Of a stretch of 64,000 bases of DNA, positions 238-64,000 are shown piece after piece. Made by a program: the position numbers and the translations under genes. The notes beneath the pieces were generated by a model. It made no database searches. It had not been told where the DNA came from and was given only the letters and a program-made list of their open reading frames with translations. The stretch comes from a virus (taxonomy: Duplodnaviria; Caudoviricetes). Within the stretch, counting starts at the first letter, position 1. The number at the start of each line of letters is the position of its first letter. The stretch spans positions 1 to 64,000 of the IMG/VR virus record IMGVR_UViG_3300013121_000016. The stretch is one strand, 5' to 3'.

Positions 238-1260
238 TTAATTGAATGAACGAAATAATACTTCCCCAGAGTTTTCGTATACGCTCTTAGGAAGATTCCA
301 ATAGTCATTGTCTTTATGCCATTTGTAAGCACGGATGAGGTCATTGATTCCAGGGTAGTACTTACCTCTGGAGCGGCCTCCTTCTATTCCGCATATTCGA
401 TCATATGGATCGGTGCGGTAGATCATAGCAGGCGTATAAGAGTCGGGCTTTGTTTCACAGACTATAAAGACAAAGTCCAGAACGGCGTAGCCATCGTTAA
501 TTAATTCTACGAGGGGAGAGGCGGCTGAGTGGACAGCCACGTCGTATCAGGCCGCCTGCCGGTAATAGCCGAATCCAGTGAAGCTAGATTCGAATTCTAA
601 AACCGATTTCCCCGTAGTCTTAAGATCAAAGGGTTGGATGGTGCGAGCTTCGTGATCAATGAGAACTCCATCTAAGAAAGCTTTACATTCATACACTTCA
701 TTGTCTAGCACGTAATCAAACTCAATCCTTACTTGGTGTAGCAGCGTAGTCCCAGGTTGCTCAAAAAAGTACTTCCTACAAAACTCATTAGCCAAAATCA
801 AATCCTTACATTTCAATGCCTGGTAGTACTCGTCTTTAGATAACGCGATCTTGTCGTCGGGTGTATCTTTAAGTCAAGTGTAGTACGCACTGTTCTTCTC
901 ATTTGACCACAGCTGCTCGACCACCCATCCCAAGCTCTTTTTATATCCTGCTTTTTGGTAAGCTTCTTCGTACAGGTCTAGCGGGCTTTCAGGATCTAAA
1001 CCAGCCGGTAAGTGTACAATGAATTTGTACATCATTCCGTAAGGCTTATATACGTCACCCACTATAAATAAATCATCCCATTTGTCGGGGGTTGTTAACA
1101 GGCAATCAACAGCTGACCCCAGGCGTAAATGCACCTTATCTTCGTCTTCAAAGAGCTCAGGCTCAGTAATTCGCAAGTAGGCTAGCCTGGGGTTCAGCAT
1201 GTTTGAAAGTCACGAGTGACTCAGTTTCTTACTGTCGGTGTAGTCTTTAAAGTTTTTCAT
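238..1260 (-). CDS. PD-(D/E)XK exonuclease (RecE/ExoVIII-like), 340 aa with 3 TGA=Trp
   Basis: Track ORFs 874-1200, 547-816 and 238-540 are one frame, joined by TGA at 1210, 874 and 547. Gives CKAFLD...FDLKTT...YYRQAA[W]Y, with Trp in the QAAWY motif. Confidence 0.85.
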
Positions 1261-1498
1261 GTAGTTGATCTTCTGGTACTTCTTCGGGGACTTCTTCGTC
1301 TTCAGGATAAATAATGGGAACAAGTGCAGCTTCAATATTATCTACCAGGGTGTCTGCACTTGTAGATGCGAATTCTCTCATGCTATCTCGCTCGGGGTGA
1401 TCCTGTACAAGCATGTACAAGCTGGCCATTTTCTTGAAGCCGACGAGAATTTCATCGTTGATCTCCCTTACTTGTTTTTTAAATTCTTCGATTGTCAT
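1247..1498 (-). CDS. Hypothetical protein with acidic tail (83 aa)
   Basis: ATG 1498 overlaps the upstream TAA (TAATG); MTIEEFKKQVRE... Confidence 0.6.
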   Translation of the reverse strand: MTIEEFKKQVREINDEILVGFKKMASLYMLVQDHPERDSMREFASTSADTLVDNIEAALVPIIYPEDEEVPEEVPEDQLHEKL

Positions 1499-1884
1499 TA
1501 TAATCCTTTTATGATGTTGATGGAAAATTCTAGCTCTTTGTGATTTTGAGGTAGGAACAAATAAAACTTTTTCTTGTCGAGTAGGGCTTTCAGCATCTTT
1601 CATTTAATGTTGAAGTCGGGAGTACGTACTCCTTTGGTTTCAATTATCCAGTTCTTACCGACAAAGTCAGGTGTATAGGATATCTCTCGTAAAGAGACTG
1701 AGACCTCGCTGAAAGCCTTTCGCTTTCGTTCATAAGTGACAACTCGCTTCAACTTCCTAGCGGGCTGTAAAACGATCTTATGTGGCTCATACTTGAAGTC
1801 GATCCCCTCTTCTGTAAGACGATTTCAAGCATACTCCTCAAACTTCGATTTGAAATTTGGAGTGCTTTGGTTTTTGTATTTCAT
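1498..1884 (-). CDS. T7 endonuclease I-like / Holliday junction resolvase-type nuclease, 128 aa with 2 TGA=Trp
   Basis: Absent from track. FKSKFEEYA[W]...FKYEP...ISYTPDFVG..WIIETKG.RTPDFNIK[W]KM; TGA at 1825 and 1600. Confidence 0.85.
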
Positions 1885-1895
1885 GTGAGGTATTT

Positions 1896-1938
1896 AAAAA
1901 TGGACGGTCACCCGAGCTCGTTTGCCCAGGTGCCGTCC
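1896..1938 (-). terminator. Hairpin plus U-tract (putative intrinsic terminator), preceded by a second hairpin at 1946-1967
   Basis: GGACGG..CCGTCC stem followed by ATTTTT on the minus strand. Confidence 0.5.
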
Positions 1939-1972
1939 TCTCCCCGGGGGCCGTTTCAATTACCCCCGTAAT

Positions 1973-2692
1973 TCATTTAGCTTGATTCACCTTGCGGCGC
2001 AGGAGTGCTTTGAGCACTTCAAGCGTGTGTTGGTTTACGCCAGTGGTAGCATTGGTTACGTACCACTCATCACCAGAGAATTCCACGGTCACATCGATAA
2101 AGTCAATGCCGAGGCTGCGGACAAATTCGGTGATCAGGACCTCTACCTGGCTGATGTTCAGCAGGCCCTTCGACAGCGGGTTCGCGAACTGCTTGTCAAA
2201 GATGAAGTCGCGTTTTTCACCGCCGATCTCTACACCAGTAGCATTACCTGCCAGGACGTTGACCCCATACATGCAGTCATTGTCTTGCTCATAGAAAATA
2301 CTTTTCAGCCAGTCTTCCTCGCGTCTTGCGAGAGCGTACAGGCTGGCGTGGTTCTCAAGCTTGGTGGATGATGCGGGCGACCGATGTACTATCGTCTGCT
2401 TATTGAGATCGAACGCCTTCTCGAACTTAGAGAGGTCAAGCATGCCCTTCGATATGAGTTCCTCCCCACTTCTGAAGGGCGGTACCGGAACAGCCGCTTT
2501 TTGTAACTGCCGCATCAGCCGACCCTTGTCCTTACAGAGCTCGACCACCTCATTAGAGTTGACCGAAATGCCCTTTCGGAGTTTGGGACGGATTGTGTCG
2601 CCTCCCGCAAAGTTCAATTGCTTGGCGTATTCACCCAAGGCGGCACTACCTCCGAGCAGGGAGGAGGTCGCTGAATCTACTAAAACTTTCAT
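1973..2692 (-). CDS. Divergent ATP-grasp (RimK-like) protein, catalytic residues apparently degenerate
   Basis: NSNEVVELCKDK...LQKAAVPVP and SLGIDFIDVTV..DEWYVTNA match the RimK layout but lack D and ExN. Confidence 0.55.
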   Translation of the reverse strand: MKVLVDSATSSLLGGSAALGEYAKQLNFAGGDTIRPKLRKGISVNSNEVVELCKDKGRLMRQLQKAAVPVPPFRSGEELISKGMLDLSKFEKAFDLNKQTIVHRSPASSTKLENHASLYALARREEDWLKSIFYEQDNDCMYGVNVLAGNATGVEIGGEKRDFIFDKQFANPLSKGLLNISQVEVLITEFVRSLGIDFIDVTVEFSGDEWYVTNATTGVNQHTLEVLKALLRRKVNQAK

Positions 2693-2709
2693 ATAATTAA
2701 GAATTTGAT

Positions 2710-2916
2710 TTACGCTCCATTTGACGCTCGCTTCAGGTAAATGCTGATTGCTAAGGCGAGTGGCGTGGCTTTCTGCTCTAAGCGCTTTACACATAGGCCA
2801 GTCGCGTGTGGTCCAAGGACTGCAACTAGCACCTCTGCCATGACTGCAGCGTCTTCAGACGCGTTGTCTTCTACGGCACGCGCCAAACAATACAACATAT
2901 TACGATATCCTACCAT
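2710..2916 (-). CDS. Hypothetical protein
   Basis: Fills the gap between UDG and ATP-grasp genes in the same orientation. Confidence 0.45.
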   Translation of the reverse strand: MVGYRNMLYCLARAVEDNASEDAAVMAEVLVAVLGPHATGLCVKRLEQKATPLALAISIYLKRASNGA

Positions 2917-3599
2917 TTGATGTTGGTATTAGTGAAATATTGAGTGTCAAAAAAACTGTTCCCGGCCAAAGGAGACGGATGCGCGCCCTGTATAATCGAA
3001 TGTGAGCTATTGGTTATGAGTCCTTCGCAAAAAGTCTGCGCTTTCTTCCCCCACTGGATGTGAATCACATTGTCCAGTGTATTTAGAGATGAAAGCAGGC
3101 TTCTTGTGAATTCCCGCCAATAGAGCAAGTGCGATCCAGCCTCGCCCCTTCTTACTGTCAAAGCAGCATTCAGAAGGAGAACACCTTGACCCGGAAGGTG
3201 TTCTAAGTAAGACAATTTATTCGCTAAACCCGCACTAGGCTTTCCCGTTTCAAGCTCAATTTTCTTGAGGATACGACGCAGGGAAGGCGATATTACGGAC
3301 TGTTTCTTAAAGTTGTCGAAAGCTAAGCCAGTAGCGGACCCATCGTGATAAGGATCCTGGCCCAGAATGACTACTTTAACCGTCTCGAAAGGACAGAGTT
3401 GTAGAGCTCGAAATACTAGCGTCTCGGGTGGGTAAATAGTAATTCCCACGTCGGTGTTCTTAGCAAGTTCGGTCTCTACGTGCAGGGTGGGCGAGACCTT
3501 ATTCACAAAGATCTCGAATGCCTCTGCAGCTCTTTCCACCCATGTAGCTCCGGCAAAGCTAGCGAGAACCGCTTTCTTTGCAGCTGATACATTTTTCAT
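2910..3599 (-). CDS. ung: Uracil-DNA glycosylase family 1
   Basis: VVILGQDPYH, GLAF, GVLLLNAALTV and HPSPL motifs; ends IKW-TAG. Confidence 0.95.
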   Translation of the reverse strand: MKNVSAAKKAVLASFAGATWVERAAEAFEIFVNKVSPTLHVETELAKNTDVGITIYPPETLVFRALQLCPFETVKVVILGQDPYHDGSATGLAFDNFKKQSVISPSLRRILKKIELETGKPSAGLANKLSYLEHLPGQGVLLLNAALTVRRGEAGSHLLYWREFTRSLLSSLNTLDNVIHIQWGKKAQTFCEGLITNSSHSIIQGAHPSPLAGNSFFDTQYFTNTNIKW

Positions 3600-4005
3600 A
3601 CTCAACGATTGTGTCAATTGTATCGGTAGCCCAGTGACAGTCTTCGATAAGGAAGAGTTTGACGGAGTCAGCTAGGCCGTCGTAGTAAAATTCAATCGAA
3701 GCTGTTTGAGCCTCGTACTCAAAGTCGCGAGAAGCGAGTGAAAAAGAAAGATACTCGTTACTAACTTCGGTAGTCGTCGCCACTACAGTCGGTGGAGTCC
3801 ACCACGTAACCTTGTGAATGACGTAATGACAATTCGCAGCGTGCATCTCTGCGACCACATGGGCCGCGACATCCTGACTGAGTTTCGTCATGGTAATAAG
3901 CTGTAAGGCTCCACCAAACAGAAGTCCTGCAAAAATCAGCAAGATATCATTGATCCATTTGGTGCCCTTAATACGGGACCACTGGTCCCTTACTTTCGTC
4001 CACAT
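3559..4005 (-). CDS. Hypothetical protein with N-terminal TM helix
   Basis: ILLIFAGLLFGGALQLI hydrophobic segment. Confidence 0.55.
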   Translation of the reverse strand: MWTKVRDQWSRIKGTKWINDILLIFAGLLFGGALQLITMTKLSQDVAAHVVAEMHAANCHYVIHKVTWWTPPTVVATTTEVSNEYLSFSLASRDFEYEAQTASIEFYYDGLADSVKLFLIEDCHWATDTIDTIVEYEKCISCKESGSR

Positions 4006-4954
4006 ATATTCTTTTCAGAATTTTCTTAACGAACTTATAGGTTTTCTTACGCTTGTGACGCAAGTAGAAATCTGATATGTCCTTAGGGCCAATAGTACTT
4101 GCGTACTTTATCCTGAAGGCAGTAGATAATTTGCGGTTTTGCTCCATCCCAGTCTCGTCATTGTCCATAAATGCCACGACGTATTTGTAGGATGCTTTTA
4201 ATTTTTTCACTACTCGTTTCACTACATCGCTCTCAACACTTACAACTTCACTATTAAAGCAGATGGCAGGGAACCCAAGTTCCCTTAGTGCCATCACGTC
4301 TTTAAGCGAAGAGGTTATAAAGACTGCTACACCCTTTTTCGCGGTTCACTCCATCCCACCGATATCTTCCGCTCCAGCGTTCCCGTACCATTTCCCTTTT
4401 CTGGAAGGGCTTAAGGGCCGGTACAGTTTTAGACGACCTGAGGGAAACGAATACACAAAGATCGGATTCGTCTTTGTTCTTCGCATATAGAGATCTCCAT
4501 TTCGATACACAGTCTTCACAGCAGAGACACCGTACTTGGTTAGCGTTTCAGCGCTTATCCCGAACTGTTGCCAGTACCACAAATCTTCGTCCATGCTCTT
4601 CTGGACTACTTCAAGTAGTACATCTTGTTCAAGATTACCTTTCCGGCGATCACTGTGCTGAGAAACGAGTGGTAATTCTCGTTGTAATATCTTCACTGCC
4701 TCCTTGTAGGAGACTTTGTATTTTTCCATGATGATGTCCATAATGGTGTAAGACTTACCTAAGGGAAAATCCCTAAAGTATAGTACACCATTACTGCCTT
4801 TCTTAAAGGCACAGGACGGGTTGTTGTCTTTTCTAAGCGGATTAGTATACAATCCTTTGCCTACCTCGATACCGAGGAAGTGGGACATAACCGCTTCTTG
4901 CCCCACTTCCTTAATCAGATCCCATGGATCCCGATGCTCGCTTGCCCTAATCAT
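3968..4954 (-). CDS. DNA primase (crAss-type, Toprim), 328 aa with 1 TGA=Trp
   Basis: NPLRKDNNPSC, KLYRP..KWYGN, ITSSLKDVMAL, MDNDETG, KDISD; two track ORFs joined by TGA 4346. Confidence 0.9.
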
Positions 4955-5228
4955 TGATTACTGGGATTTTTAAGAATTTAGTAGCCTTGTAGACTACTGC
5001 TACATGCGTGTCAATCTGATGGTAAATATCCATCTCGGTGTTCACAGCCAACCTCACTTTCGACAATCCTAACTTCTTGTCCTTTGTAGGATCGGGAGTC
5101 GCCACAGAGATCTCGCAAGAGAATGTGACGATCTCTATGTTCTTAAGGAAGGCGGTTAATGCTTCCCTGGCAGCTCGCCTTTTTTCCGGTGAGGGGTCGT
5201 CTAGTTGCTTAATTAATTGCTGTAGCAT
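4947..5228 (-). CDS. Hypothetical protein
   Basis: Operon-packed ORF; N-terminal HEAT-like DDPSPEKRRAAREAL. Confidence 0.55.
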   Translation of the reverse strand: MLQQLIKQLDDPSPEKRRAAREALTAFLKNIEIVTFSCEISVATPDPTKDKKLGLSKVRLAVNTEMDIYHQIDTHVAVVYKATKFLKIPVIND

Positions 5229-5240
5229 AATGGTATGAAT

Positions 5241-5276
5241 AAAAAAGGGGCGCTAAGCTTTTGGCCCCGCCCCTTT
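5241..5276 (-). terminator. Intrinsic terminator-like hairpin
   Basis: AAAGGGGCG..CGCCCCTTT stem with T6 on the minus strand, after the putative SSB. Confidence 0.55.
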
Positions 5277-5293
5277 AGGTGAGTGAGTGGATT

Positions 5294-5848
5294 TTACGCA
5301 AGTAATTTGGAGTCAGCTGAGAGACTGTCTTTGTTAGCCAGTTCCTCAATCTTTTCTTGTTCTTTCTTGGTAAACCTTAAAGAGGTAGGGAACCCCTTCA
5401 CGTATTTCTCCATGTAATTGTAATCCGGAACCTTTCCATACTTGTCATTCTTAGGGTCAACACTGACCTTAAGGCAGATCTCTTCGTCAATGAATTGAGA
5501 AAGAGTGTCGGCTGCAAGTTCCATGAAAGTCTGGTAATCAGGGGCTTCGAGGTTGCCTGCTTGATCTCCTAAAAAGGATCGCAGGGCAACTACTACAATG
5601 CGCACGTTCTTAGCGATTGAGCGCTCTAGTGCGTCAGATGGTGTTTCCCCTTCTTGGAGGAAAGCTGCTTGCGGTTCAAATAAGCGCTTATGTATAAAGC
5701 GTCCGTCCTTAGAGGCGAACTTTAAGTCTCACCAGCCTTGGTCATATACCAGGCCTTTGAATAAAACATCTCCTTCGTGTATTCCCACCGGAATCTTTGA
5801 GCCGCCCGTCGGTAGCTCATTCTCAAAATAAAGCTTAGCTTGTATCAT
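5294..5848 (-). CDS. Putative single-stranded DNA-binding protein, 184 aa with 1 TGA=Trp
   Basis: MIQAKLYF..IPVGIHEGDV..DQGW[W]DLKF joined across TGA 5729; lies between ERF and primase. Function is inferred from context. Confidence 0.55.
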
Positions 5849-5852
5849 CTTC

Positions 5853-6281
5853 TTAATACTTCTTATATGTGTTAGTGTATGTCTGTGCCGAAACGGTTTT
5901 ACCTGATGCTTTATTGCCATCGTCATCGTCCTCGATGTTTAATCCGAGAATTGCACCTAGCGAATAGCGGCGCATGTAGGTGATGGCTGACCCGACTGCT
6001 TGCGGATCGTTCTTTACAGGCTGCGTACTTACAGTGTCCTCTAACCACTCACCTGATTTATGCATCAAGATTGTGGTGAGGCCATTGTCACCTGAAGGAA
6101 ACTGGCAAAACGATAACCCGTTATTTGATAAGGGCTCTCTAATGGCCCTGATGATTGCACTCAAGCTTACGTAAGACGACTTAAAGAAAGGGTTCTTCGC
6201 GTCTTTTACGATAGCATCCATCTCGCCTTGGAATTTTGCGAGTGCTGTAGCGAGATTCGTAATACTCTCTGATTTCTGCAT
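5853..6281 (-). CDS. ERF-family ssDNA annealing protein
   Basis: KDAKNPFFKSSY, PQAVGSAITYMRRYSL..LG...DDDGN. Confidence 0.92.
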   Translation of the reverse strand: MQKSESITNLATALAKFQGEMDAIVKDAKNPFFKSSYVSLSAIIRAIREPLSNNGLSFCQFPSGDNGLTTILMHKSGEWLEDTVSTQPVKNDPQAVGSAITYMRRYSLGAILGLNIEDDDDGNKASGKTVSAQTYTNTYKKY

Positions 6282-7267
6282 TATAGCGTAACCTCTGTTA
6301 ATTTCCCAAACTTAAAGTCTTCAACAAGAGGTATGATTTTAGTCTCACCAAATCTTTCTTTGATTAAGTGCCAATAAACCATACTCTTGGTCTCGTCCTG
6401 TGGCCACTTCACAGGTAAACCGTTTGGAAAGCCTTCTAATTGTGGCCCGTATCTGCGCCCAATGCCACTTAAGGTGGCTGGGCGGTGTGTGATAATTACG
6501 TAATCGCTGCAAGTAAACACAGCTGATGATGCAAAGATATCATTTCTTGTTGGAAAATGCAAATTATAATTCTGCACTCTCTCACTTTTTTCGATTTCCC
6601 TGTTCATCTGTGTGAGGACAATAAAAATAACCTTCAGTCCTTCTGCAGCAAACTGCTTCTTAAGGTCCACGAACGCGCGCATCAGCTCATCTACAATGGC
6701 TTTCTCGTCGTCAGTCTGTTTACCCTTTGTAAGCAGCACGTGGTCGATTGTGACCACTAAGCCTGTGTCCTTATCCAAATGTTCTTTGGTGAATCCGCGA
6801 ATAGTTGAAACAATCTGTTCAACTGTCCCCGCATTATCAACATAGTACACTGGATCATCCTTCATCCTTCCGAGAAGCTCGCGAGCTTTCAAGAAGGTGT
6901 TTTCGTCTATAGGACTCTCTGCCGAGTACAACTCCTTAATGGACTTGTCAAGCTTAGCAGAAAGGCCTTTCGTTAGTTGATCTTCAATTAGCATCTCAAA
7001 CTCGAAGGACAAAATGAAGAACTTCTGATCCCTGTTAAGATCAATGAAATCCCTTTTAAGTTCTTCAAGAAGAGTTGATTTACCACTGCCGCTCATGCCG
7101 GCAAATGATAGAATTCTATTTCAGTCTATCCCATTCATTAGCTGCTTGTTCAGCTTAGCCTTAGAAGTGAGAAGAGACTTGACCTTGCCAGTACGTCGAT
7201 CCTCAAGAGCCTTCCAAGTTAGATTAGCTCCATGGGATATATGTCGATAATTAAGCGATTGAGTCAT
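6281..7267 (-). CDS. DnaB-like replicative helicase, 328 aa with 1 TGA=Trp
   Basis: GID[W]NRILSFAGMSGSGKS (TGA 7121, just before Walker A), FEFEM, IDH, LTQMNR. Confidence 0.9.
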
Positions 7268-7784
7268 AACTTGGTTTATCTGGAGCTTTCACATCTTTGT
7301 AAACGCCATCGGCTAAGAAGCTCGCTGGTCCCTTCATCCATCTGAAGGGAGAACCCGTAGTACTTGCCTCCATAGCAAACCGAGATATATAATTCTCGGT
7401 AGCGCTAAACAACTCATCCTCGTCAAATTGAAGGATGACCCGTTGATAGAGATTGTAGACTTTGTTCTTAGCAATCCTAAAGGAACGACCATCCGTGGTA
7501 GGTGGCCAGAGTACCCACCATTTCTCGAATTTGTCCGAGAATTTAACTAGCGGTTTATCCTCTGATTCGAGAAGGTCTGTAAGGAACGCGAGTCCTTTGT
7601 CTGTGAGCTCATGCGTGTCCCAGTAACCGAGCAGAACTAACCTTGAAAACTCTGGTGCAGTTAACTCGATCTCCAGCTCATGTTTCTCGGCCAGATCCCA
7701 CATGAAAAAAATCATATTCAGGGAAACTTGCGCGTTCCGAGCTTTCTGGACCATAGATTTTATACTGTCGGATGTGATCTTCAT
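7251..7784 (-). CDS. Putative phage replication initiator / helicase-loader-like protein
   Basis: FEKWWVLWP...WMKGPASFL resembles the FxxFWxxYP...patFL C-terminal motif of phage replication proteins; adjacent to DnaB. Confidence 0.55.
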   Translation of the reverse strand: MKITSDSIKSMVQKARNAQVSLNMIFFMWDLAEKHELEIELTAPEFSRLVLLGYWDTHELTDKGLAFLTDLLESEDKPLVKFSDKFEKWWVLWPPTTDGRSFRIAKNKVYNLYQRVILQFDEDELFSATENYISRFAMEASTTGSPFRWMKGPASFLADGVYKDVKAPDKPSYDSIA

Positions 7785-9127
7785 TTTTAAAAAACAAACT
7801 TCTTAGTTCTGGGTTTCCAATGATTACTGTCAGTGCATCCATAATGCAATCACTAATAGTATCAAATGGTCCCGCAATGTGATAATTTTTAGGTGAGCGG
7901 TTGTATCGGTGTTTGAGGATGTATTGCAGGCCAACCACATGTCCCCCGCTTTTCATCTCAAAGATAAGGAGGAAAAGTCGCCAGCCAAACTTTTTGGCTC
8001 TAAAAACTTTTTTCATTAGTTGGTTAACTTTGCGATATCCACCCGGAAGACTCTAAAGATCTCTGAAATGACATCCAAGGGCGACTGGTCGCTGAGTGGA
8101 TAGATTTCACTGCGTATGCGGTTCTTGTCCCACCTGTTCTCGATCTTGTTCCAGAACTCCAGGCGGTATAGTGCCCATATGCGTGTACCGTCATGTGAAT
8201 ACCCAACTTCGACCGTGAGCATTTGTTTCCCTTCATTTGACACAATGGGATGCTCCAGTGTTAAAATCTTAGGCATGATAGTTCGCCGCTAGAATGAATG
8301 CGTGCGAAAGCACGTTCATTCCGAGCGGGTTTTTGTACGATGGCTCAATAAGATTCCCGTCTTTCGTTTTGATGGAGCAGGAATACTGTCCTGATGCATC
8401 TAAGTATACGGTAATCTTTGCGCCATCGGCTAGTGAAATCTTACGCTGAACGCGTCTGTTGTTTATGTCTGCCATATTAGTCTAGGTCCCAGCCTGTTAA
8501 GATTGGTTTTCTTTCTTCAAATTGTAATTCTGCAACCAAAGCAGCCGCTGCTGCAACAGCATCGCTTATGTCAGCGACTTCTTCAGTAGTGCCGACCTTG
8601 CAAACTTCTTGGAGATTACGCGCCGTTACTCTGATTTTTGATTTGTCGTAGATTACAGCGTAGTAAGTTTCTTTGAAGACATGCTTCCAAATGGTAGCAT
8701 AAAAACGATCGTCCAGCGTGGCCGTGTTAATGTACTCTGCCATAAAGTATCTCTGAAACTCTCATAAATCCCATTGACACCGCATCACATATGCCTAGTA
8801 TAGCGGCAGTTCTCAAACTAAAACCGCTTGAAGGATCGTGTACGGTGCAAGAGTATTTGCTTAGCATGGTGGATCCACTGCTAAGTTCAAGGTGGACAAA
8901 CATTACTACGTTTGTCCCGGTATCTACTTTGATTGGGAAGTCAGCTTCCATAGCTCGATAAATGCTGCGCAGACACAGTCTGCAATGTTATCGTAAATAT
9001 ACGAATTGCTATTCACTGCTGGCAAATATATAACCCAATAGAATTGTGGAAATCCATGTGAATTATTTATAAGCTCATAGATATGAATTTCATTGATGCC
9101 AACTTTGATTTTAGCCAAGGGTCCCAT
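7678..9127 (-). CDS. Array of six small hypothetical proteins (7678-8016, 8016-8276, 8269-8475, 8477-8743, 8727-8951, 8924-9127)
   Basis: Abutting or overlapping starts and stops; similar beta-rich plus C-terminal helix pattern. Confidence 0.6.
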
Positions 9128-51683: not shown

Positions 51684-51686
51684 TTT

Positions 51687-55650: not shown

Positions 55651-55653
55651 ACT

Positions 55654-57390
55654 ATGGCTAAATATTCACTAGACACGCTCACCTCTATTTTTCTTCCGAA
55701 AAATATACGTAAAAGACGGGATAACTATCCTGAGTCTAGAGTCACTCTAGTGCCACACGCCGATGCCATAAGTTTGTACCATGTAGTTAAAGACATAATC
55801 GAGTACTTAAATATTACTCCCGGCAGTGGTACTACAGATTTGACTGCGACTCACGCAGCGTCATCCGTAATCATTGAATCTTCGTCAGGTGATGACGCAA
55901 CAATTAATGCAGCTACGACAACACTTGCTGGCGTCATGACTGCATCAGATAAAACAAACTTAAATTCTTTAGTTACATTAAGTGGTGTCTCAGCAGCATC
56001 TACAGACCTAGGTACATTCACAGGTACGACAATCGCCGATTCTTCCACAATTAAACAAGCACTTCAAGCACTTGAAACGTCCTTGGAAGCCGGCGGTTCT
56101 TATACTGATGAAAATGCTCAGGACGCTATCGGAGGAATTCTCTTAGACTCAGCGACAATCGACTTTACATACGTAGACGGAACACCATCAATATCAGCAG
56201 CAGTTAAAGATGCTTCGATAACGTACTCGAAAATTGCTAACGTAAATGCTGAAAGGCTTTTGGGTAGATACTCCAATTCAATTGGAGTAGTACAAGAAGT
56301 CTCACTTGGTGCAGGGCTTGCATTCTCTGGATCAACACTCACACACTCTGACACATCTTCTGTAGCTAACTCCACTAATTCAGGAGCCACTGTCCTTCAA
56401 TCAATCTCTTTCGACACATTCGGACACGTTCAAACAGTAACAACGAAAACGATTACTGCAGCAGACATTGGAAGTATCGATGGTTCAGGTGGGGCAAATA
56501 GAGTCGCTTACTGGGTAGATGGAGATACGCTGACTTCTGATGCAGACTTTACGTTCAACGGAAGTGGTCTTGCAATCAACACAACCTTAGCAGCTTCGCA
56601 CACTCTCACGGTAGGGGGCGCAACAAAGACGGCAACACTTACCGTAGAAGGCGTTGGGGCACTTGGCGGCTCACTTGCGGCCGCAGAAATACGTCTGAAC
56701 AACACTACAGCCTTAACAGGCCAAACGTGGTATCTTAACTCGGCTAACGCAGGCAACCTCTACATCGCAACGAATTCATTAAATCCAGAATTAACTTTGG
56801 ATACGAATGGCGATGTGTTAGTTGAAAATAGATTGTCTTTGGGAGATTCTCTCACAGGGACGGCTACCCGTGTCATAGGCATAACTGCTGACGGTTATCT
56901 CAGAGAAATCACGATGGGATCTAACATGATCCTGTCTTCTAATCAGCTTTCTTCTTCGGGAGGCGGTGGAGGCGGAGGTGGCTACGATGAAATCCAGAAA
57001 GATACCACTCCTTTTACGCCTTACTCTATACTTAACTTTGTTGGTGTTGCATTCGATGTTTCAGATAATGCTATCAATTCTTCGACCGACGTCGAACTCC
57101 ATTCCAATCTCGAGACGATTGCCGATATCTCAGGCTTAAGTAGTGGAGACTTTATTTACTATAATTCATCGGCTTTCCAGAAACTAACTCCAGTAAAAGA
57201 TACACAAGACATTTCTTCGGGTACTACTGTAACGCTTCCTTCTTCTCCGGCAGCTAATACGATTGTAGATGTTTATCGCAACGGAATACTCCAAGAAGAG
57301 AATGAGGATTACACGATCGCGGGGACACTTCTAACTTTTACTAATCCGTTTGTGACTGGAGAAAAGGTAACCACAAAATACTTCACATAA
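55654..57390 (+). CDS. Fibre-like structural protein
   Basis: ATTTLAGVMTASDK fibre motif; C-terminal VYRNGILQ..DYT. Confidence 0.7.
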   Translation: MAKYSLDTLTSIFLPKNIRKRRDNYPESRVTLVPHADAISLYHVVKDIIEYLNITPGSGTTDLTATHAASSVIIESSSGDDATINAATTTLAGVMTASDKTNLNSLVTLSGVSAASTDLGTFTGTTIADSSTIKQALQALETSLEAGGSYTDENAQDAIGGILLDSATIDFTYVDGTPSISAAVKDASITYSKIANVNAERLLGRYSNSIGVVQEVSLGAGLAFSGSTLTHSDTSSVANSTNSGATVLQSISFDTFGHVQTVTTKTITAADIGSIDGSGGANRVAYWVDGDTLTSDADFTFNGSGLAINTTLAASHTLTVGGATKTATLTVEGVGALGGSLAAAEIRLNNTTALTGQTWYLNSANAGNLYIATNSLNPELTLDTNGDVLVENRLSLGDSLTGTATRVIGITADGYLREITMGSNMILSSNQLSSSGGGGGGGGYDEIQKDTTPFTPYSILNFVGVAFDVSDNAINSSTDVELHSNLETIADISGLSSGDFIYYNSSAFQKLTPVKDTQDISSGTTVTLPSSPAANTIVDVYRNGILQEENEDYTIAGTLLTFTNPFVTGEKVTTKYFT

Positions 57391-57392
57391 AA

Positions 57393-59612
57393 ATGGTAAC
57401 TAGAACTAGTATAGCCGATCAACTTTATCCTTCGACATCGGCAAGATCAATCATAATTACAGACGCCAGTAATAAACCGTCATATTTTGCGCCCACCACT
57501 GGCGCAGATCGGCTCTTAATGTGGGACGACTCGGCTTCTGCGTGGGCTTCAGCGACTCTTGGCGCTAACCTCTCATTTTCCGGCACTACATTGAATGCCG
57601 CAGCTTCTTCCGGCTATTCTACAATACAAGAAGAAGGAGTGTTAGTGTCTGCTGCTAATAGCATAATCAACTTTGTTGGTAGTGGTATTACTGCTGCGGA
57701 CGCTGGAGGTGGTGTGACTTCAATCACACTGGACGCCACTTTAAATGCACTTTCGGCACTCGATTCTTCTACCGGTTATCTAGTTATGACTGGTGGAGAC
57801 TCCTTTGCTAAACGTGAACTCACAGGTACAGCTAACAGAATTAGCATCACAAATGGCGATGGTACTGCTGGAGACCCCGTAATAAACATAGACCTTGCAT
57901 ATATAGGTCAAACAACAATTACGACACTTGGCACTATAACAACTGGTACATGGCAGGGAACTGCCGTAGACGAGCTTTTTGGCGGCACTGGAATAACAAC
58001 TTACGCACAAGGTGATACACTCTATGCATCAGCGGCAGATACTCTAGCAAAACTTACTATCGGCGCTAACGGCTCAGTTTTACAATCGAACGGAACTACG
58101 CCATCGTGGCAAGTGCTCGAGTCCGCTGACCTTTCTGATAACGCTAATATTGCGCACTTAAATGAAAATGAGATCATCAGTGGTAACTGGGAATTTGATA
58201 ACAATATTGTAGTTCCCACCGTTCCAACAGATGGCACACATGCTGCTTCTAAAGATTATGTAGATGCGCTTTCGTTTGGAACTGTTAAACACTACGCAGA
58301 TCTTTACGCAGATTCTAACCTCACTTTATCGGGCGAGCAGACCATCGACGGGACACTAACATCAACTTCTCGAGTACTTCTTAATGCACAATCAGCCCCA
58401 GAGGAAAATGGCGTCTATCTTACGGGCGCCGGTGCTTGGTCCAGGGTGACCGACTTAGATGATGAATCTGAAATCAACGCTGCCTTAGTTGTAATTAAGT
58501 TTGGCACGACTTACGCCTCTACTTTTTGGACAACAGTAGAAGACATCGTGACTATCGATACTGATCCGATCGATTTTATTCAAATCAATAATCCAGTCAC
58601 ATTAACAGCTGGCGATGGTTTAACCAAAATAGGCGACACTATAGATGTTGTTACGGCTTCTTCTTCTCGTATTGTAGTTAACGCTAATGACATCGACTTG
58701 GCTTCTGGAGTAGTGGGCGGTTCCGGACCTGGTTCTTACGGATCAGCTTCGACCATCCCCGCCATTACTGTCGATACTTACGGTAGAATTACGTCTACAG
58801 CTTCCAATGCTGTAGCAATTACTTCGTCTAATGTATCCGACTTTACGGAGGCTGTCCAGGACGTAGTTGGCAATCCTTCATTCCTAATAGATACCGGAGC
58901 AGTCGTCATTACTTATGATGACGGTCTAAACACCCTTACCATCCACGCTGACAATCTTTATACGGACGATGGCACGATTCCTAATTCTACAACACGTACT
59001 GTTAGCCTGGGAGACGCTACCTCAACATTGTTATTTCAGAATGCAGCGACTGGAATGCTTCTGCAGATTGAGGATGATTCAGTATCCTTAATGGACGGCA
59101 TTGCGGGCTTTACGTCCACAGACATATTCTTTACCACGCCTTCATCTCTTCTAACCATGGATAATTCGGAGTTCCGACTGAGATTAGATGGTGGATTAGG
59201 AATTATTCAAGATGCTCGTGTAACTACATTAGGACTTCAATATGCAGCTGACTACTCAGCTGATTGGAACGACCGGTCTATTGTAGACAAGGAATATGTA
59301 GATAACGCAATTGCTGGTGTAACGGTAACACCAACCTACACTTGGGGATACATCGAATCATCGACTGCAACTACAATCGATCTCGATGCTAACGTGGGTG
59401 AGGTTAAAGACCGCAACGGGAATAATATAGCTTTCACTATTCCTTCAGATCCAGACTTATTGGAAGTCTATCGCAATGGTATGCTACTCAGTAGAACTGG
59501 TACTTCAACAACCAGAGACTACTCACTGAATACAGTTACAAACGAGATTACTTTTGTAGTGGCACTCACCTCTACAGATTCAATCCTTTTGAAGAAAATA
59601 AATCTCACATAG
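57393..59612 (+). CDS. Fibre-like structural protein
   Basis: LGTITTGTWQGT, ASKDYVD, LSGEQTIDG..RVLL..Q...ENGVY, ITVDTYGRITS fibre motifs. Confidence 0.75.
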   Translation: MVTRTSIADQLYPSTSARSIIITDASNKPSYFAPTTGADRLLMWDDSASAWASATLGANLSFSGTTLNAAASSGYSTIQEEGVLVSAANSIINFVGSGITAADAGGGVTSITLDATLNALSALDSSTGYLVMTGGDSFAKRELTGTANRISITNGDGTAGDPVINIDLAYIGQTTITTLGTITTGTWQGTAVDELFGGTGITTYAQGDTLYASAADTLAKLTIGANGSVLQSNGTTPSWQVLESADLSDNANIAHLNENEIISGNWEFDNNIVVPTVPTDGTHAASKDYVDALSFGTVKHYADLYADSNLTLSGEQTIDGTLTSTSRVLLNAQSAPEENGVYLTGAGAWSRVTDLDDESEINAALVVIKFGTTYASTFWTTVEDIVTIDTDPIDFIQINNPVTLTAGDGLTKIGDTIDVVTASSSRIVVNANDIDLASGVVGGSGPGSYGSASTIPAITVDTYGRITSTASNAVAITSSNVSDFTEAVQDVVGNPSFLIDTGAVVITYDDGLNTLTIHADNLYTDDGTIPNSTTRTVSLGDATSTLLFQNAATGMLLQIEDDSVSLMDGIAGFTSTDIFFTTPSSLLTMDNSEFRLRLDGGLGIIQDARVTTLGLQYAADYSADWNDRSIVDKEYVDNAIAGVTVTPTYTWGYIESSTATTIDLDANVGEVKDRNGNNIAFTIPSDPDLLEVYRNGMLLSRTGTSTTRDYSLNTVTNEITFVVALTSTDSILLKKINLT

Positions 59613-59613
59613 G

Positions 59614-61815
59614 ATGACTAAATTAGATCTAGACCAACTTAAACAGGAAGGTGCCTCTATAGGTGACGTCTTAAGTTGGGGCGCAAGCGGATGAGAACCG
59701 ACTACTCTCACATTTTCCGGTGGTATATATTCAGGTAGTGGTACTGTTCCCGGTACTACGGTTGTATCACTTACCAACAATTTAGACATACAATTTGCGT
59801 CAACAGCTCCCGCAATACAAATTTTTGGCGGTGTTACAACTGGAGTTTATTTAGCATCTGCTGATGGTTCTACTAATGCTTATGTAGAAGATAATGGAAG
59901 ATTTGAGATGTTTGGTACAGGTTTGGGTAGTATTGCGGCGGATTCTTTAAACCTAACTGGTACTACTGATCTTACTATCGATATAGCAGGCGCAACAGGT
60001 ACGGCAGGTCAAGTTATCACAGCCGTTGGAGATGGTACAGCTATATGGGACGACAACCCCTCAGGTGGTATATACGGGGGTTCTGGTAATATCGCGTCGA
60101 ATGTTGACGCACATTTAACAGCCGCTAATTCATTTACTATTACGTATGCCGATTCTGCCATATCTGCAGCATTTAATGATGATACAGGATCTGTCTATAT
60201 AGGTTCGAAAGATACAGGAACTAACCTTACGCTACAAAATGGTTTATTCAGTTTGTCTACAGATACCGATGGTTCTATTTTAGCAGATGCTCTAACCTTA
60301 GGAGGTGCGACATTTGGATTAACTATAGGGGCATCTTCTGGGACAGCTGGACAAGTCTTGACAGCCATAGGAGACGGAACTGCTGTATGGGATGATCCCA
60401 CAGGTGGTATTTATTCAGGAAGTGGAACTATAGCTTCTGGTGCGGCAGCAACTGTTACAGCGTCGTCGTTATTTAAAATAAATTACTCTACAGCTAATCC
60501 GGCTTTCCAAGTAGATGATACAGACAACTCGACCACAATTTTCTCTGATAGTGGATCTGTTTATGTTTACGTGAATGATTCGACTATAGATTTAGGCACA
60601 ACAATAATTAATGTTGGTGGTGGAGCAACCGCAGCACAACTTAGATTCTTAGAGCCTTCAGGTTCTGGAACTAACTATTTTAGTTTGCAAGCTCCCGCTC
60701 TAGCTGCAAATACAGCCTACACACTTCCTAACGCTTTTCCTGCAGGATCTGACTACGCACTAGTTTCTGATGCTTCGGGTAATATGAGTTGGTTAGACAC
60801 CTCTACTTTAGGAAGTAGCCCATCAGTTATATCTCCCTCTCAATTGACAGCTGACCAAGACGACTATAGTCCTACAGGCTGGTCTACAGCTACTATTGTT
60901 AGATTAGATGGTGATTCAGGCATGCGGGCTATAACTAGTATGGCTGCTGGATCTTCTGGAGAAATTAAACAATTAGTTAATATAGGATCATACACTATTT
61001 ATTTTCCAGGTGAGCACCCCGATGGAACAGCAGCTAACAGAATTTCTGTTGGTTCTGACTACAAATTATATCCTGGCGCTTCAGCTAGAATTATGTATGA
61101 CGGTACTAGCTCGCGTTGGAGATTCTTAGATCCAGAAGTATCTTCAGCTAGAGTAGCAGGTAACCACTATGAATTGAGTGCGGCTAGTATCTCTGCTGGA
61201 GATCATGCTGCTTTAGCTTTTACCGCCGTCAATTCTGGCAGTGTTGGCTTATCAGGGGGAGGGACTACAGGTTTACCTTCTTTGTTTGGTGTGTCCACAT
61301 TGACTACTACTAATGGTGGAGGTTACTACTACTTTCTTAAAAGTAACGTTACATATGGATATTTTGGTAGCTCTCATATAGCAGCACGTTATCTTACTTC
61401 AATTCCAACTTTATCTGACGGAACTGACACTTTCCAAGTAGATTATCAGATAACCGCGTCACCAACTTCAACTAGTAGTACACCTAATAATAGTGTTGGT
61501 ATACGTTACTCACACGGTATTAATGGTGGTAACTTTCAAGGTTACTCCAGAGATAATGCTGGAAGTGAGGCAAGCGGTACTGTTGATTTAGGAATAGCTC
61601 CAACAGCTGGTACAATGTACGATCTAGTTATTGAGATCGATAAAAGCAACACGGAAGCACGATTCTATATAGATGGAGTATTTCGTGGTAGAGTAACTGG
61701 AAATTTACCAAACACTGTTGCGGCTGGATCCAGAGCAATCTTATTAAAATCAGCTGGTACAAATGCTAGAACTCTCAATCTTCACGCATTATCAGCAACT
61801 TCAATTTATAAATAA
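59614..61815 (+). CDS. Fibre-like protein with internal repeats, 733 aa with 1 TGA=Trp
   Basis: GDVLSWGASG[W]EP (TGA 59692); GTAGQVxTAxGDGTAxWDD twice, GGIYxGSG three times. Confidence 0.75.
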
Positions 61816-61835
61816 AATACTAAATTTTAAACACA

Positions 61836-62327
61836 ATGCCAAAAATTTCAAATTTAGATTCCGTTCCAGGTACATTAACTGGTACTGAGCAACTTGCATT
61901 GAATCAAAACGGAGTTACTTATCAAGCAGGGCTACAAGATTTACCTATGCTTCGTTATAGTGATATAGAGTTTAATGACGATGGAGAAAACAACGCTAAT
62001 AGGCCTAACGGGGCAATATATGTAGGAACAGATGGTTCGTTTACAGTACGTTCTACTAATGATAATGTAGCGCTTACTGTATATGATGACGGAGGTGATA
62101 ACTATGCAATAAATATTGCAAACTCTAATAGTACAATCTTAACAGTTGAATCAACACAAGCTTATTTAGAATCTTCTTTGGTAAACTTTAAACTTTATAC
62201 ACCTACAGGTTTTGATGATGCAGCAGGAGTAGTAGGAGCTATTACTTGGGATGAAGATTACATTTACGTAAAAACCATTGCTGGTTGAGCTCGCACCGCA
62301 TTAGCACTCATGAATCCAACTCCTTAA
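61836..62327 (+). CDS. Structural protein, 163 aa with 1 TGA=Trp
   Basis: GAITWDEDYIYVKTIAG[W]ARTAL matches the G..wD..YlYv....WkR.aL fibre motif. Confidence 0.75.
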
Positions 62328-62331
62328 TATT

Positions 62332-63303
62332 ATGCAAATAGAACACGGTGAAAATAGACTGATTAGAGTTGAAGAGCCACTTACTCAAGTCTATCACGAT
62401 AATACTTTAATAGGTAAAGGAACAAAAGGCTCTAGATTAAGAACTAATGGGAGCGGTATTCATGACTCTACATTATTTGGTGACGGCACCGCTTCTCAAC
62501 CTTTGACTACCTATACTGCTGATGATATCTTACTTGATGAAAATGGTAAAGGACTTTTAACTGAGAGTGGTGAATATATTCTAGTAGAGTCGGCCATTAT
62601 AAATCATGGTATCTATGATGGCAGTGGTTCGCTAGCTGATAATGTAACTGTTGATCTAAATGGTAAGACGCTACTATTTTCTTATACGAATGGTACAGCA
62701 GCTCTTACATTAGACGATAGCAGTGGAACTATTGGCATGAGCTCTCCAAATAACGCTACTTACATACAAATATCAGATAACACGTTCCTGTTAGGCATAG
62801 GTGAAGACGCTAGTGCTATTCTTACTGATGCTAGAGTTTCCCTATCGGATAGAGTTGGTCTTCAATATGATAACACTATAAATTTTGTTAACAGTTCTTT
62901 AATTAGTAGAGATTATGCAGATGGTTTAGCAATTGGCACACCTAACGTCACTATACATGGTTCCACCGTAGTAGGTAGATATAGAGCGTTATTATCACAA
63001 AGTGGAACAAATGATCCTGTTGCGTTCGTAACACTTAATACATTAGATGGAGATATTGTCTGAACAAGAAGCGCATTAGGGCTTTACCACGGAACACTTG
63101 CTGGAGCATTCGCTACACAATATGTATATTGTTTAGCTAACTACACTCCTCTTCGTGGAGGAGTAGCAAATGTGTCACTTGGTAAGATTGATGGTGATAC
63201 TGTAGGACTTTACGCCTTACATGCCGCCACAGGTAATCCTGAGGAAATAGATTGTGGAACAAACTATGATGTCTCAATTGATATTACTGTTTATAACGAT
63301 TAA
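62332..63303 (+). CDS. Structural protein, 323 aa with 1 TGA=Trp
   Basis: YRALLSQSGTNDP...NTLDGDIV[W]TRSALGLY; frame open to TAA 63303. Confidence 0.75.
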
Positions 63304-63318
63304 AAACAACTAAAAATT

Positions 63319-64000
63319 ATGTTAAAAACTTTTTTACCTAAAGCGTTTAGATCTGAGAAGACTCCCTCTAATAAAGGCTACTTTAATTTAGAGAATTGGA
63401 TTCAGGCCCGGATACAAGACGGGACGATTGAATTAGGAACTGCTGGCGTAGATGCAACTATCTACACTGCAGATGGTACATTTACTGAAAGTAGAAATAT
63501 ATCTCTAGCTCCTGACACGGGCATCACTTGAACTATTAACCCATCAAACTATATTACTTGGGGAGATGATGGTGGAATGTTCTTTAGTATGCTTTCTTCT
63601 GATGCTTCTATACTCCGTATGGATGGTAGTAGTATTATAATGGGTGAATCAGACGGCATTACTACACTTATTGGTAACAATAATGGAGGAGATGATACTC
63701 AAACAGTTAGATCTTTTGTTAATGTACAACAAGATTCTATTGAAATTGGTGTGAACGATAATGACACCGTAACAGGATCAATTTTTGTCAATTCAGGGGG
63801 TGAGTTTGTAATTAGTAATAATTACAATACTATTTCAATAGGAGCTACTCCCGGCACTTCGGGAGATGCCAAACACTTTTTTGATATCGCTGCGGCTAAC
63901 ATTTTATTCGGTATGTCTGATGAGGATACTATATATTCATCTTTCGAGATAGCTTCAAATGGCAACATTACTTTATCGCAAGGAACGAATGAAAATGGAG
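63319..64000 (+). CDS. Fibre-like protein, partial, with 1 TGA=Trp
   Basis: Frame stays open past TGA 63529 to the window end. Confidence 0.7.

What the first reader, a model, noticed from the sequence alone, without database searches (positions are those of the whole stretch)
238..64000. Genome partitioned into two genetic codes: TGA=Trp in replication and virion blocks, TGA=stop in the early block
Seen: 17 in-frame TGAs in 238-16640 and 9 in 43979-64000. They restore intact genes and fall at motif Trp positions (QAA[W]Y, IK[W]KM, GID[W]N, APKG[W]TFVVADYSQ, G[W]IPEVWEG, EKD[W]LL). Genes in these blocks end in TAA/TAG, with only 3 exceptions. In 16737-37774 at least 18 genes end in TGA, about a dozen in ATGA/TGATG coupling (17243, 18702, 18968, 19534, 24711, 25889, 27319, 28815, 29354, 30428, 30778, 33577, 34378), and I found no case needing read-through. 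Known: stop-codon recoding occurs in crAss-like and other phages of standard-code hosts. Inference: a temporal code switch during infection.
Basis: partly seen in the sequence, partly recalled or inferred. Interest (0 to 1): 0.9.

Follow-up and report, generated by a model that had tools for sequence, protein, structure and literature searches.

The report
Block-wise TGA recoding in crAss-like phage
A complete 103-kb crAss-like phage from activated sludge reads the stop codon TGA as tryptophan in its replication and virion genes, using its own tRNA, but still uses TGA as a true stop in one 21-kb gene block; this is a clear new example of a mixed-code layout already described for such phages.

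Summary
The window is the first 64 kb of a complete 103,169-bp phage with terminal repeats, distantly crAss-like, from activated sludge. Replication genes (238-16640) carry 14-16 in-frame TGAs and virion genes (43979-64000) carry 9. Coding potential and homologue alignments continue across them. In relatives these codons align with Trp as often as TGG codons do (16/30 against 102/179; other codons 0.5%). The only tRNA (41524-41598) has a tRNA-Trp body with anticodon UCA.

In 16737-37858, 36 genes hold 94 TGG and no internal TGA. Twenty end in TGA, 13 of them overlapping the next gene's start codon (Fisher P about 1e-5). I add a third regime: 38122-43979, which holds the tRNA, has no in-frame TGA at all. 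A relative with 45% polymerase identity shows the same layout.

Block-wise codes and a temporal switch are already published for crAss-like and other phages (Yutin 2021, Borges 2021, Mgcod 2022), and this scan has found them before on other DNA. Timing was not testable here. The "early" label is unproven, because the block holds two endolysin-like genes. A few genes in the recoded blocks may also end in TGA. Verdict: a new member of a known kind.

The parts
238..16640 (-). Replication and recombination block with TGA used as a sense codon. Genes: RecE-like exonuclease 238-1335, resolvase-like 1498-1884, primase/Toprim 3968-4954, DnaB-like 6281-7309, SF2 helicase 10208-11368, PolA 13498-15336, and others. 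It continues across the genome ends to about 100115-103030.
   Evidence: Pfam/PHROG matches span the TGAs. Coding potential continues downstream of the TGAs. TGA aligns with W in 7/18 comparisons, against 30/82 for TGG. The block has 16 internal TGAs in the window and 86 TGG overall.
16641..16736 (-). A 96-nt intergenic gap where the code regime changes on the same strand. The last TGA stop is at 16737-16739 and the first sense TGA is at 16517.
   Evidence: One sigma-70-like match lies at 16677-16649 just upstream of the first recoded gene. It is only a consensus match and not evidence of function.
16737..37858 (-). Standard-code block of 36 genes with no internal TGA; 20 end in TGA and 13 of those are coupled to the next start. 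Genes include AAA ATPase 20223-21647, vWA 24711-25892, MoxR-like 25889-26908, endolysin-like glucosaminidases 21829-22341 and 27319-28206, and an EAD11 protein 34916-35737.
   Evidence: The 40 homologues of gene 17243-17848 all end at or before its TGA; none covers the 38-codon extension. GC3 is 0.545, against 0.485 in the replication block and 0.39 in the virion block.
38122..43979 (+). TGA-free block of 11 small genes, including a GroES-like gene 39826-40215 and GroEL 42366-43979. All end in TAA or TAG, and none has an in-frame TGA. The block holds the suppressor tRNA.
   Evidence: TGA stops 0/11 here against 20/36 in the standard-code block, Fisher P=0.001.
41524..41598 (+). tRNA-Trp-type opal suppressor, anticodon UCA, 75 nt, with A1:U72, G73 and a short variable loop.
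   Evidence: ARAGORN. Rfam tRNA 55.7 bits. Of 120 bacterial stretches matching its D-arm plus anticodon stem with the anticodon left free, 118 have CCA. It is about 80% identical to bacterial tRNA-Trp.
43979..64000 (+). Virion block with TGA used as a sense codon. Genes: terminase 43979-46219, portal 46179-48584, the TGA-free major capsid protein 49699-51171, and tail/cargo genes. It runs on to 100018 beyond the window, with 12 more sense TGAs.
   Evidence: PHROG matches. TGA aligns with TGG/W in relatives in 9/12 comparisons. Coding potential continues across the TGAs. Only one of 27 genes may stop at TGA (51951).

Best explanation
This is a crAss-like phage of a standard-code host that has partly reassigned UGA to tryptophan.

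Shown:
- The phage encodes one tRNA, a tRNA-Trp body with anticodon UCA.
- About 14% of the Trp codons in its replication genes (16%) and virion genes (13%) are TGA.
- These genes need read-through to give full-length PolA, helicases, primase, terminase, portal and the giant virion proteins.
- A 21-kb leftward block never uses TGA inside genes. It uses TGA as its main stop codon, mostly in ATGA overlaps where termination is coupled to the next start.
- The rightward block that holds the tRNA avoids TGA altogether.

Inferred:
- Genes that the host's unmodified ribosomes can read are made first. These are the TGA-stop block and the TGA-free block with the tRNA.
- As the suppressor tRNA accumulates and competes with host RF2, the replication and virion genes become translatable.
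- The switch is probably soft rather than hard. Many TGA stops in the standard-code block are followed closely by TAA/TAG, which would limit the damage from read-through.
- Sense TGAs lie towards the 5' ends of genes, where a failed read-through costs little.

My odds: TGA=Trp recoding by the phage tRNA 0.95; partition kept by selection 0.85; partition reflects timing of expression 0.55.
For: Genome and family: complete genome with a 141-bp terminal repeat. CrAss-like portal, terminase and capsid genes.

Read-through: open frames with positive coding scores on both sides of 37 TGAs. Pfam/PHROG domains span them.

Trp identity: TGA columns are W-enriched about 80-fold over background and match the TGG columns. 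Six TGA positions are shared with relative G001.

tRNA: Trp scaffold.

Partition statistics: P about 1e-5. Thirteen coupled ATGA/TGATG junctions. Homologues of an E-block gene end at its TGA.

Selection signals: backup stops at a median of 6.5 codons against 21 by chance, P=0.008. Sense TGAs are 5'-biased, median relative position 0.26 against 0.50 for TGG, P=0.009.

Conservation: the same gene order, the same partition and the same GC3 offset in relative G001/L030, at 45% PolA identity and from another sample.

tRNA position: the tRNA lies near the 5' end of the strand that carries recoded late genes, as reported for such phages (Mgcod preprint 10.1101/2022.06.29.495998).

Published model: PMC7886860; 10.1101/2021.08.26.457843.
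Against: - No expression or proteome data exist, so timing is pure inference.
- The standard-code block holds two endolysin-like genes. Lysis genes are late, and they are the genes most strongly recoded in Borges et al.
- The replication genes are recoded. In phi14:2 the replicative module is early and in crAss001 it is middle, so the switch would have to come very early.
- Up to 6 genes in the recoded blocks seem to end in TGA, so the two meanings coexist within a block.
- No release factor or TrpRS gene is present to enforce a switch.
- Several single TGA columns are not Trp in homologues: 4348 Q, 14244 N/Y, 876 L/D.
- The host is unknown.
Confidence: 0.7

Rival explanations
1. There is no temporal switch. 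Suppression is constant and partial throughout infection, with the phage tRNA competing with host RF2. Sense TGAs act as throttles that lower the yield of particular proteins. TGA-terminated genes are simply read through at some rate. The blocks differ because their proteins need different expression levels, not because they are made at different times.
For: - The most abundant virion protein, the major capsid protein, has 6 TGG and no TGA, and about half of the virion genes are TGA-free.
- Sense TGAs are 5'-biased, which suits a throttle as well as a gate.
- TGA stops in the standard-code block have nearby backup stops.
- Some TGA stops also occur in the recoded blocks.
- No RF or TrpRS gene is present.
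- The Mgcod authors argue for a 'soft' switch.
Against: - A throttle alone does not explain the complete absence of sense TGA among 94 Trp codons in 36 contiguous genes, nor the complete absence of TGA in the 11 genes around the tRNA.
- Block-wise rather than gene-wise distribution, conserved in a distant relative, points to a shared property of the blocks such as the transcription class.
Confidence: 0.22
2. The partition has a mosaic origin. The 16737-37858 block is an accessory module exchanged with standard-code phages or hosts. It keeps the standard code for historical reasons or for compatibility, not for regulation.
For: - GC (0.48 against 0.43-0.45) and GC3 (0.545 against 0.39-0.485) differ from the rest of the genome.
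- Gene content is accessory: MoxR-vWA, AAA, EAD11, glucosaminidases.
- Recoding intensity varies among relatives; L005 and L031 are almost TGA-free.
Against: - Relative G001/L030 has the same genes in the same order next to the same replication genes. It shows the same GC3 offset (0.44 against 0.355) and the same partition. The block is therefore old in this lineage and has had time to acquire sense TGAs if they were neutral there.
- Backup stops suggest adaptation to the suppressor.
Confidence: 0.06
3. The pattern is an artefact: a chimeric assembly of a code-4 phage and a code-11 phage, sequencing errors (TGG read as TGA), or a host that itself reads TGA as sense (code 4 or 25).
For: The genome is a metagenome assembly at low depth. 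Logan contigs have a depth of about 3.
Against: - The contig closes on a 141-bp terminal repeat.
- An independent contig from another sample bridges both block boundaries in the same order.
- A separate assembly shows identical letters at the TGAs it covers.
- Thirty-seven errors falling only at G-to-A in Trp-like columns is not credible, and six of these TGAs are shared with G001.
- A code-4 or code-25 host would not tolerate 20 TGA-terminated, start-coupled genes. TGA columns align with Gly only 1-3 times.
Confidence: 0.02

Closest known systems
TGA-to-Trp (code 4) recoded crAss-like phages with block-wise code use (Yutin et al. 2021, PMC7886860; Pfennig, Lomsadze and Borodovsky, Mgcod, bioRxiv 10.1101/2022.06.29.495998)
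   Same: - CrAss-like genome of about 100 kb with two divergent arms.
- In-frame TGA in terminase and portal that aligns with TGG in relatives.
- A Sup-TCA tRNA near the 5' end of the strand that carries the recoded late genes.
- One block that is readable by the standard code.
   Different: - The sample is environmental (activated sludge), not gut.
- The code change does not follow the strand switch. On the leftward strand a standard-code block is followed by a recoded replication block.
- Replication genes are recoded, whereas Mgcod found replication genes mostly among the non-recoded genes.
- The standard-code block does not merely lack TGA; 56% of its genes stop at TGA.
- A separate TGA-free block surrounds the tRNA.
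Stop-codon recoding as a regulator of late and lytic genes (Borges et al., bioRxiv 10.1101/2021.08.26.457843: Agate, Jade, Lak and other clades)
   Same: - A standard-code host is inferred.
- The phage carries its own suppressor tRNA.
- Structural genes are recoded.
- The proposed model is a switch from the standard to the alternative code during infection. The authors state that use of the alternative code in replication genes is variable, and that in Lak these genes are mostly recoded.
   Different: - That paper proposes loss of TGA stops before recoding (2.7% TGA stops in a close standard-code relative). Here 26 of 103 genes still end in TGA.
- Lysis genes are the most recoded there. Here the two free-standing endolysin-like genes are in the standard-code block.
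- There is no RF1 or TrpRS 'code change module'.
Temporal gene classes of cultured crAss-like phages (phi14:2, bioRxiv 10.1101/2020.03.07.982082; crAss001, PMC8375218)
   Same: - Divergent arms.
- A block of small genes of unknown function next to the replication genes.
- Virion and giant-protein genes on the other arm.
   Different: Those phages use the standard code. Their temporal classes were measured by RNA-seq, while nothing has been measured here. In phi14:2 the whole replicative module is early, which would make a suppressor-dependent PolA surprising.

Membership tests
Stop-codon-recoded phage with block-wise code use (TGA to Trp) | In-frame TGA in conserved essential genes, with homology and coding potential continuing across it | tested here: met
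   PolA, SF2 helicase, DnaB-like, primase, terminase and portal
Stop-codon-recoded phage with block-wise code use (TGA to Trp) | Reassigned codon aligns with Trp (TGG), or with itself, in relatives | tested here: met
   TGA aligns with W in 9/12 and 7/18 comparisons, TGG in 72/97 and 30/82, and other codons in 0.47%. Six TGAs are shared with G001, and 17 of 25 G001 TGAs fall on W or TGA.
Stop-codon-recoded phage with block-wise code use (TGA to Trp) | Phage-encoded suppressor tRNA with a matching anticodon | tested here: met
   tRNA with anticodon UCA at 41524-41598 on a Trp scaffold
Stop-codon-recoded phage with block-wise code use (TGA to Trp) | A contiguous block readable by the standard code | tested here: met
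   16737-37858 has 0 internal TGAs among 94 Trp codons, and 38122-43979 has no TGA at all
Stop-codon-recoded phage with block-wise code use (TGA to Trp) | Standard-code block expressed before the recoded blocks (temporal switch) | not testable with these tools
   No RNA run is listed for this phage. No shared promoter motif was found.
Stop-codon-recoded phage with block-wise code use (TGA to Trp) | Host uses the standard code | not testable with these tools
   The host is unknown. This is inferred from 20 TGA-terminated, start-coupled genes and from the Bacteroidota hosts of known crAss-like phages.
Crassvirales (crAss-like phages) | Homologous portal, large terminase and major capsid protein | tested here: met
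   phrog_6547, phrog_6681 and phrog_11589, E from 1e-68 to 1e-108. The portal is 26-30% identical to 130 crAss-like and Flavobacterium phage records.
Crassvirales (crAss-like phages) | Giant virion-packaged RNA polymerase with a DFDxD motif | not tested
   A 5366-aa ORF lies at 79332-95432, beyond the window. It was too long for the family scan and was not examined.
Bacterial-type tRNA-Trp | Cloverleaf with A1:U72, discriminator G73 and a Trp-type D arm and anticodon stem | tested here: met
   Of 120 genomic matches to the scaffold, 118 have anticodon CCA.
Bacterial-type tRNA-Trp | Charged with Trp by the host TrpRS despite U34 | not testable with these tools
   Inferred from the W-enriched TGA columns only
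Selenocysteine or TGA=Gly (code 25) decoding | tRNA-Sec architecture (8/5 acceptor/T stems, long variable arm), or Gly at the TGA columns | tested here: not met
   The window tRNA is a 75-nt 7/5 cloverleaf with a short variable loop. Gly appears at 1 of 18 and 0 of 12 TGA comparisons.

The most novel reading that the evidence does not exclude
In this lineage UGA has two selected meanings at once. In a coupled operon block it is the principal stop codon, and termination there feeds re-initiation at 13 ATGA/TGATG junctions. In the replication and virion genes it is Trp, placed early in the genes as a gate. The code switch would then come before DNA replication rather than before lysis. Free-standing lysis-type enzymes would sit on the standard-code side. 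That would be a different regulatory logic from the published 'late and lytic gene' model.
Probability: 0.3. Interest if true: 0.5.

Novelty: new member of a known kind. Interest (0 to 1): 0.3.

Why it matters
Annotation: this genome needs block-aware gene calling. Under table 11, PolA, two helicases, primase, terminase, portal and the giant virion proteins are all split. Under table 4, 20 genes of the standard-code block gain false tails.

Biology: the genome extends block-wise TGA recoding to an environmental (activated sludge) crAss-like lineage. The reassigned codon is still the commonest stop of one block, and the replication genes depend on the suppressor. These two points do not fit the simplest published path of 'lose the stop first, then recode late and lysis genes', so the lineage is a useful test case.

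The principle itself is already published.

Tried and rejected
- The search for related loci with PolA alone found nothing. An alignment query was needed.
- Greedy ORF coverage under tables 11 and 4 does not separate the blocks, because gene fragments still count as coding.
- Promoter and terminator consensus scans were at chance level for promoters. A k-mer search of 29 intergenic regions found no shared motif. No independent evidence for transcription classes was obtained.
- No RNA holder was listed among public runs, so there is no information on expression.
- The Logan contigs laid on 1-17300 are short, low in depth and probably from the source sample. They cover only some of the TGAs.
- The extended form of E-block gene 18124-18705 has no homologue other than itself.
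- RF-1/RF-2 (PF00472) and class Ib synthetase (PF00579) searches of the whole genome were blank.
- Rfam shows no HDV-like or theta-type ribozyme next to the tRNA. Only 16 nt separate the tRNA from the next start codon.
- The tRNA family search on the records of relatives was blank, because their UCA tRNAs fit the tRNA-Sec model instead.
- Sec or Gly decoding, a chimeric assembly and a code-4 host were considered and rejected (see the rival explanations).
- The +4 base after TGA differs only weakly between stops and sense codons: T in 5/20 against 2/38, P=0.04. I did not build on this.

Full report
WHAT THE DNA IS

The window is bases 1-64000 of a single 103,169-bp contig that closes on a 141-bp direct terminal repeat. 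The collection lists it as a virus record that is 100% complete. PHROG models identify a large terminase (43979-46219), a portal (46179-48584), a major capsid protein (49699-51171) and GroEL (42366-43979). The portal is 26-30% identical to 130 crAss-like and Flavobacterium phage records. This makes it a distant, environmental crAss-like phage. The only public runs that hold it are activated-sludge metagenomes.

Genes run leftward from about 37858 to 1, and on across the ends to about 100115. They run rightward from 38122 to 100018.

CHECKING THE OBSERVATION

I trained a codon log-odds score on 37 long TGA-free ORFs. It separates the true frame from the shifted frames well. I then scored the stretch on each side of every in-frame TGA on the coding strand.

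In 238-16640 and 43979-100018 the frame stays coding across the TGAs. Pfam/PHROG domains and tblastn alignments to relatives run across them in PolA, the SF2 helicase, the DnaB-like helicase, the primase, a RecE-like exonuclease, a resolvase-like nuclease, the terminase, the portal and the giant virion proteins.

In 16737-37858 every in-frame TGA is followed by a short stretch with a zero or negative score that overlaps the next gene in another frame.

With curated gene models:

| Block | Genes | TGG | Internal TGA | TGA stops |
|---|---|---|---|---|
| Standard-code block (16737-37858) | 36 | 94 | 0 | 20 |
| Replication block | 29 | 86 | 16 | at most 5 |
| Virion block | 27 | 145 | 21 | 1 |

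Fisher tests give P=1.2e-5 for internal TGA and P=8e-6 for TGA stops. The six quoted motifs are real.

For one gene with a long possible tail (17243-17848, +38 codons), 40 homologues from the 1.8-billion-protein library all end at or before the TGA.

WHICH AMINO ACID

Single columns are mixed. In PolA, TGA 15183 aligns with F/Y/I/V and 14244 with N/Y/W. In the primase, 4348 aligns with Q. The fair test is to compare TGA columns with TGG columns at the same divergence.

| Comparison | TGA aligned with W | TGG aligned with W |
|---|---|---|
| Virion-block relatives L001-L005 | 9/12 | 72/97 |
| Replication-block relatives L030/L031 | 7/18 | 30/82 |

All other codons align with W in 28 of 5998 cases. 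In the reverse direction, 17 of 25 in-frame TGAs of relative G001 fall on W or TGA in this genome, and six TGA positions are shared. Gly, Cys and Arg are not enriched.

The only tRNA in the genome (41524-41598) has anticodon UCA. It is a normal 75-nt cloverleaf with A1:U72 and G73. I searched 185,579 bacterial genomes for its D arm and anticodon stem with the anticodon left free. Of the 120 stretches returned, 118 had CCA. TGA therefore most likely means Trp, supplied by a phage tRNA-Trp with C34 changed to U. No release factor or TrpRS gene is present.

REFINEMENTS

1. There is a third regime. The 11 rightward genes from 38122 to GroEL surround the tRNA. They contain no in-frame TGA and all end in TAA or TAG.
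2. The recoded blocks are not pure. Genes ending at 7680, 1975, 15335 and 51951 seem to stop at TGA, although some of these are ambiguous. Three near-terminal TGAs turn out to be sense: 10249 and 49681 by homology, and 62286 by spacing.
3. TGA stops in the standard-code block are followed by an in-frame TAA or TAG after a median of 6.5 codons. The median for all TGA triplets there is 21. Eleven of 20 have one within 8 codons, against 27% expected (P=0.008).
4. Sense TGAs sit early in genes. Their median relative position is 0.26, against 0.50 for TGG (P=0.009).
5. GC3 falls stepwise: 0.545 in the standard-code block, 0.485 in the replication block and 0.39 in the virion block.
6. The 57-kb contig G001, from another sample and with 45% PolA identity, has the same gene order across both block boundaries. 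It has no clear sense TGA and 4 TGA stops in 13 genes of the corresponding block, 6 or more sense TGAs in its replication genes, and the same GC3 offset. Other relatives (L005, L031) are almost TGA-free. Recoding intensity therefore varies within the clade, as reported for crAss-like phages.

HOW IT PROBABLY WORKS

The shown and inferred steps are set out under the best explanation. The temporal part is inference only. Two things argue for caution. First, the block called 'early' holds two endolysin-like glucosaminidases, besides a MoxR-vWA pair, an AAA ATPase and an EAD11 protein. Second, the replication genes, which are early in phi14:2 and middle in crAss001, depend on the suppressor here. 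The backup stops fit the 'soft switch' of the Mgcod authors. A constant partial suppression that throttles certain proteins remains a live rival. A mosaic origin is made unlikely by the conserved synteny and partition in G001. Artefacts are excluded as far as the data allow.

COMPARISON WITH WHAT IS KNOWN

- Yutin et al. [quoted passage not shown]
- Borges et al. proposed the switch from the standard to the alternative code during infection. They noted that recoding of replication genes is variable.
- Mgcod formalised the block structure, the position of the tRNA at the 5' end of the recoded strand, and the 'dual-coded' early block.
- This scan has also reported the same kind of layout on other phage genomes.

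The present genome differs in five details: an environmental source; a code change within one strand; recoded replication genes; heavy use of TGA as a real, coupled stop in the standard-code block; and a separate TGA-free block round the tRNA. These make it a new member of a known kind, not a new kind.

SIDE OBSERVATIONS

Relatives G001 and L005/L002 carry, at the site of the window's tRNA, a 94-98-nt UCA tRNA with a second hairpin that copies the tRNA-Trp anticodon loop (CCA). They also carry a bona fide tmRNA just upstream. A pattern scan of IMG/VR found 38 unique such tRNAs with compensatory changes in both hairpins. This scan has already reported this 'two-headed' tRNA many times. What is new here is that a canonical one-armed version and the two-armed version occupy the same syntenic slot within one clade.

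Noticed in passing
L232:12974-13068 (G001), L005:4332-4429, L002:4332-4429; syntenic to window 41524-41598: Relatives carry a 94-98-nt UCA tRNA with two tandem anticodon-like arms: the first has loop CUUCAAA (UCA) and the second has loop (C/G)UCCAAA (CCA, the Trp anticodon loop). Rfam reads them as weak tRNA-Sec (35-36 bits, gathering score 47). A pattern scan of IMG/VR gave 38 unique examples. In 27 of them the CCA arm has 5/5 stem pairs, and there are 30 distinct stems, although the stems were not part of the pattern. The window's own tRNA is the plain one-armed form, so both designs occur in one clade at one site. This scan has reported the two-armed tRNA before on other genomes.
   Followed up: partly
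window 41010-41254; L232:11903-12151; L005:3947-4208: Both relatives have a tmRNA above Rfam's gathering score (62.9 and 53.4 bits, gathering score 47) just upstream of the UCA tRNA. ARAGORN gives a tag peptide for G001. In the window, only an 18-nt tmRNA 3' end (41226-41243, E=2.5e-4) and a weak permuted-tmRNA match are found, and ARAGORN finds no tmRNA. The window aligns with the relatives over the T arm/acceptor end and the TAAATGAC resume region. A phage tmRNA beside a stop-codon suppressor may serve to rescue ribosomes that read through.
   Followed up: partly
window 21829-22341 and 27319-28206 (-): Two glucosaminidase (endolysin-like) genes lie in the standard-code block, and both end in TGA. 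If they are the lysis enzymes, lysis genes here are on the non-recoded side, the opposite of the bias reported by Borges et al.
   Followed up: partly
G000 72574-77409 (L230:8574-13409), beyond the window: A 1611-aa virion protein with tail-like and endolysin-like segments holds 7 of the genome's 37 sense TGAs, all within its first 470 codons (against 12 TGG). This is the densest recoding in the genome.
   Followed up: no
L005/L002 13504-16854: The major capsid gene of this relative is split into three pieces by two insertions of about 0.8-1 kb. The inserted ORFs contain in-frame TGA. They are probably self-splicing introns with homing-endonuclease genes, as described for crAss-like phages.
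   Followed up: no
window 24711-26908 (-): A MoxR-like AAA+ ATPase and a vWA-domain protein are encoded as a coupled pair (ATGA overlap, each ending in TGATAA). The pair is conserved in relatives G001 and L029.
   Followed up: no
window 1247-1884 (-): The resolvase-like gene 1498-1884 reads through TGA 1602 (W or TGA in relatives). It therefore overlaps the ORF 1247-1603 by about 105 nt, and that ORF's ATG forms an ATGA with this same TGA. Either the downstream gene starts later, or the same TGA serves as a sense codon for one gene beside a start for the next.
   Followed up: partly
whole genome: GC3 falls stepwise by block: 0.545 in the standard-code block, 0.485 in the replication block and 0.39 in the virion and tRNA blocks. 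The same offset is seen in relative G001 (0.44 against 0.355).
   Followed up: partly
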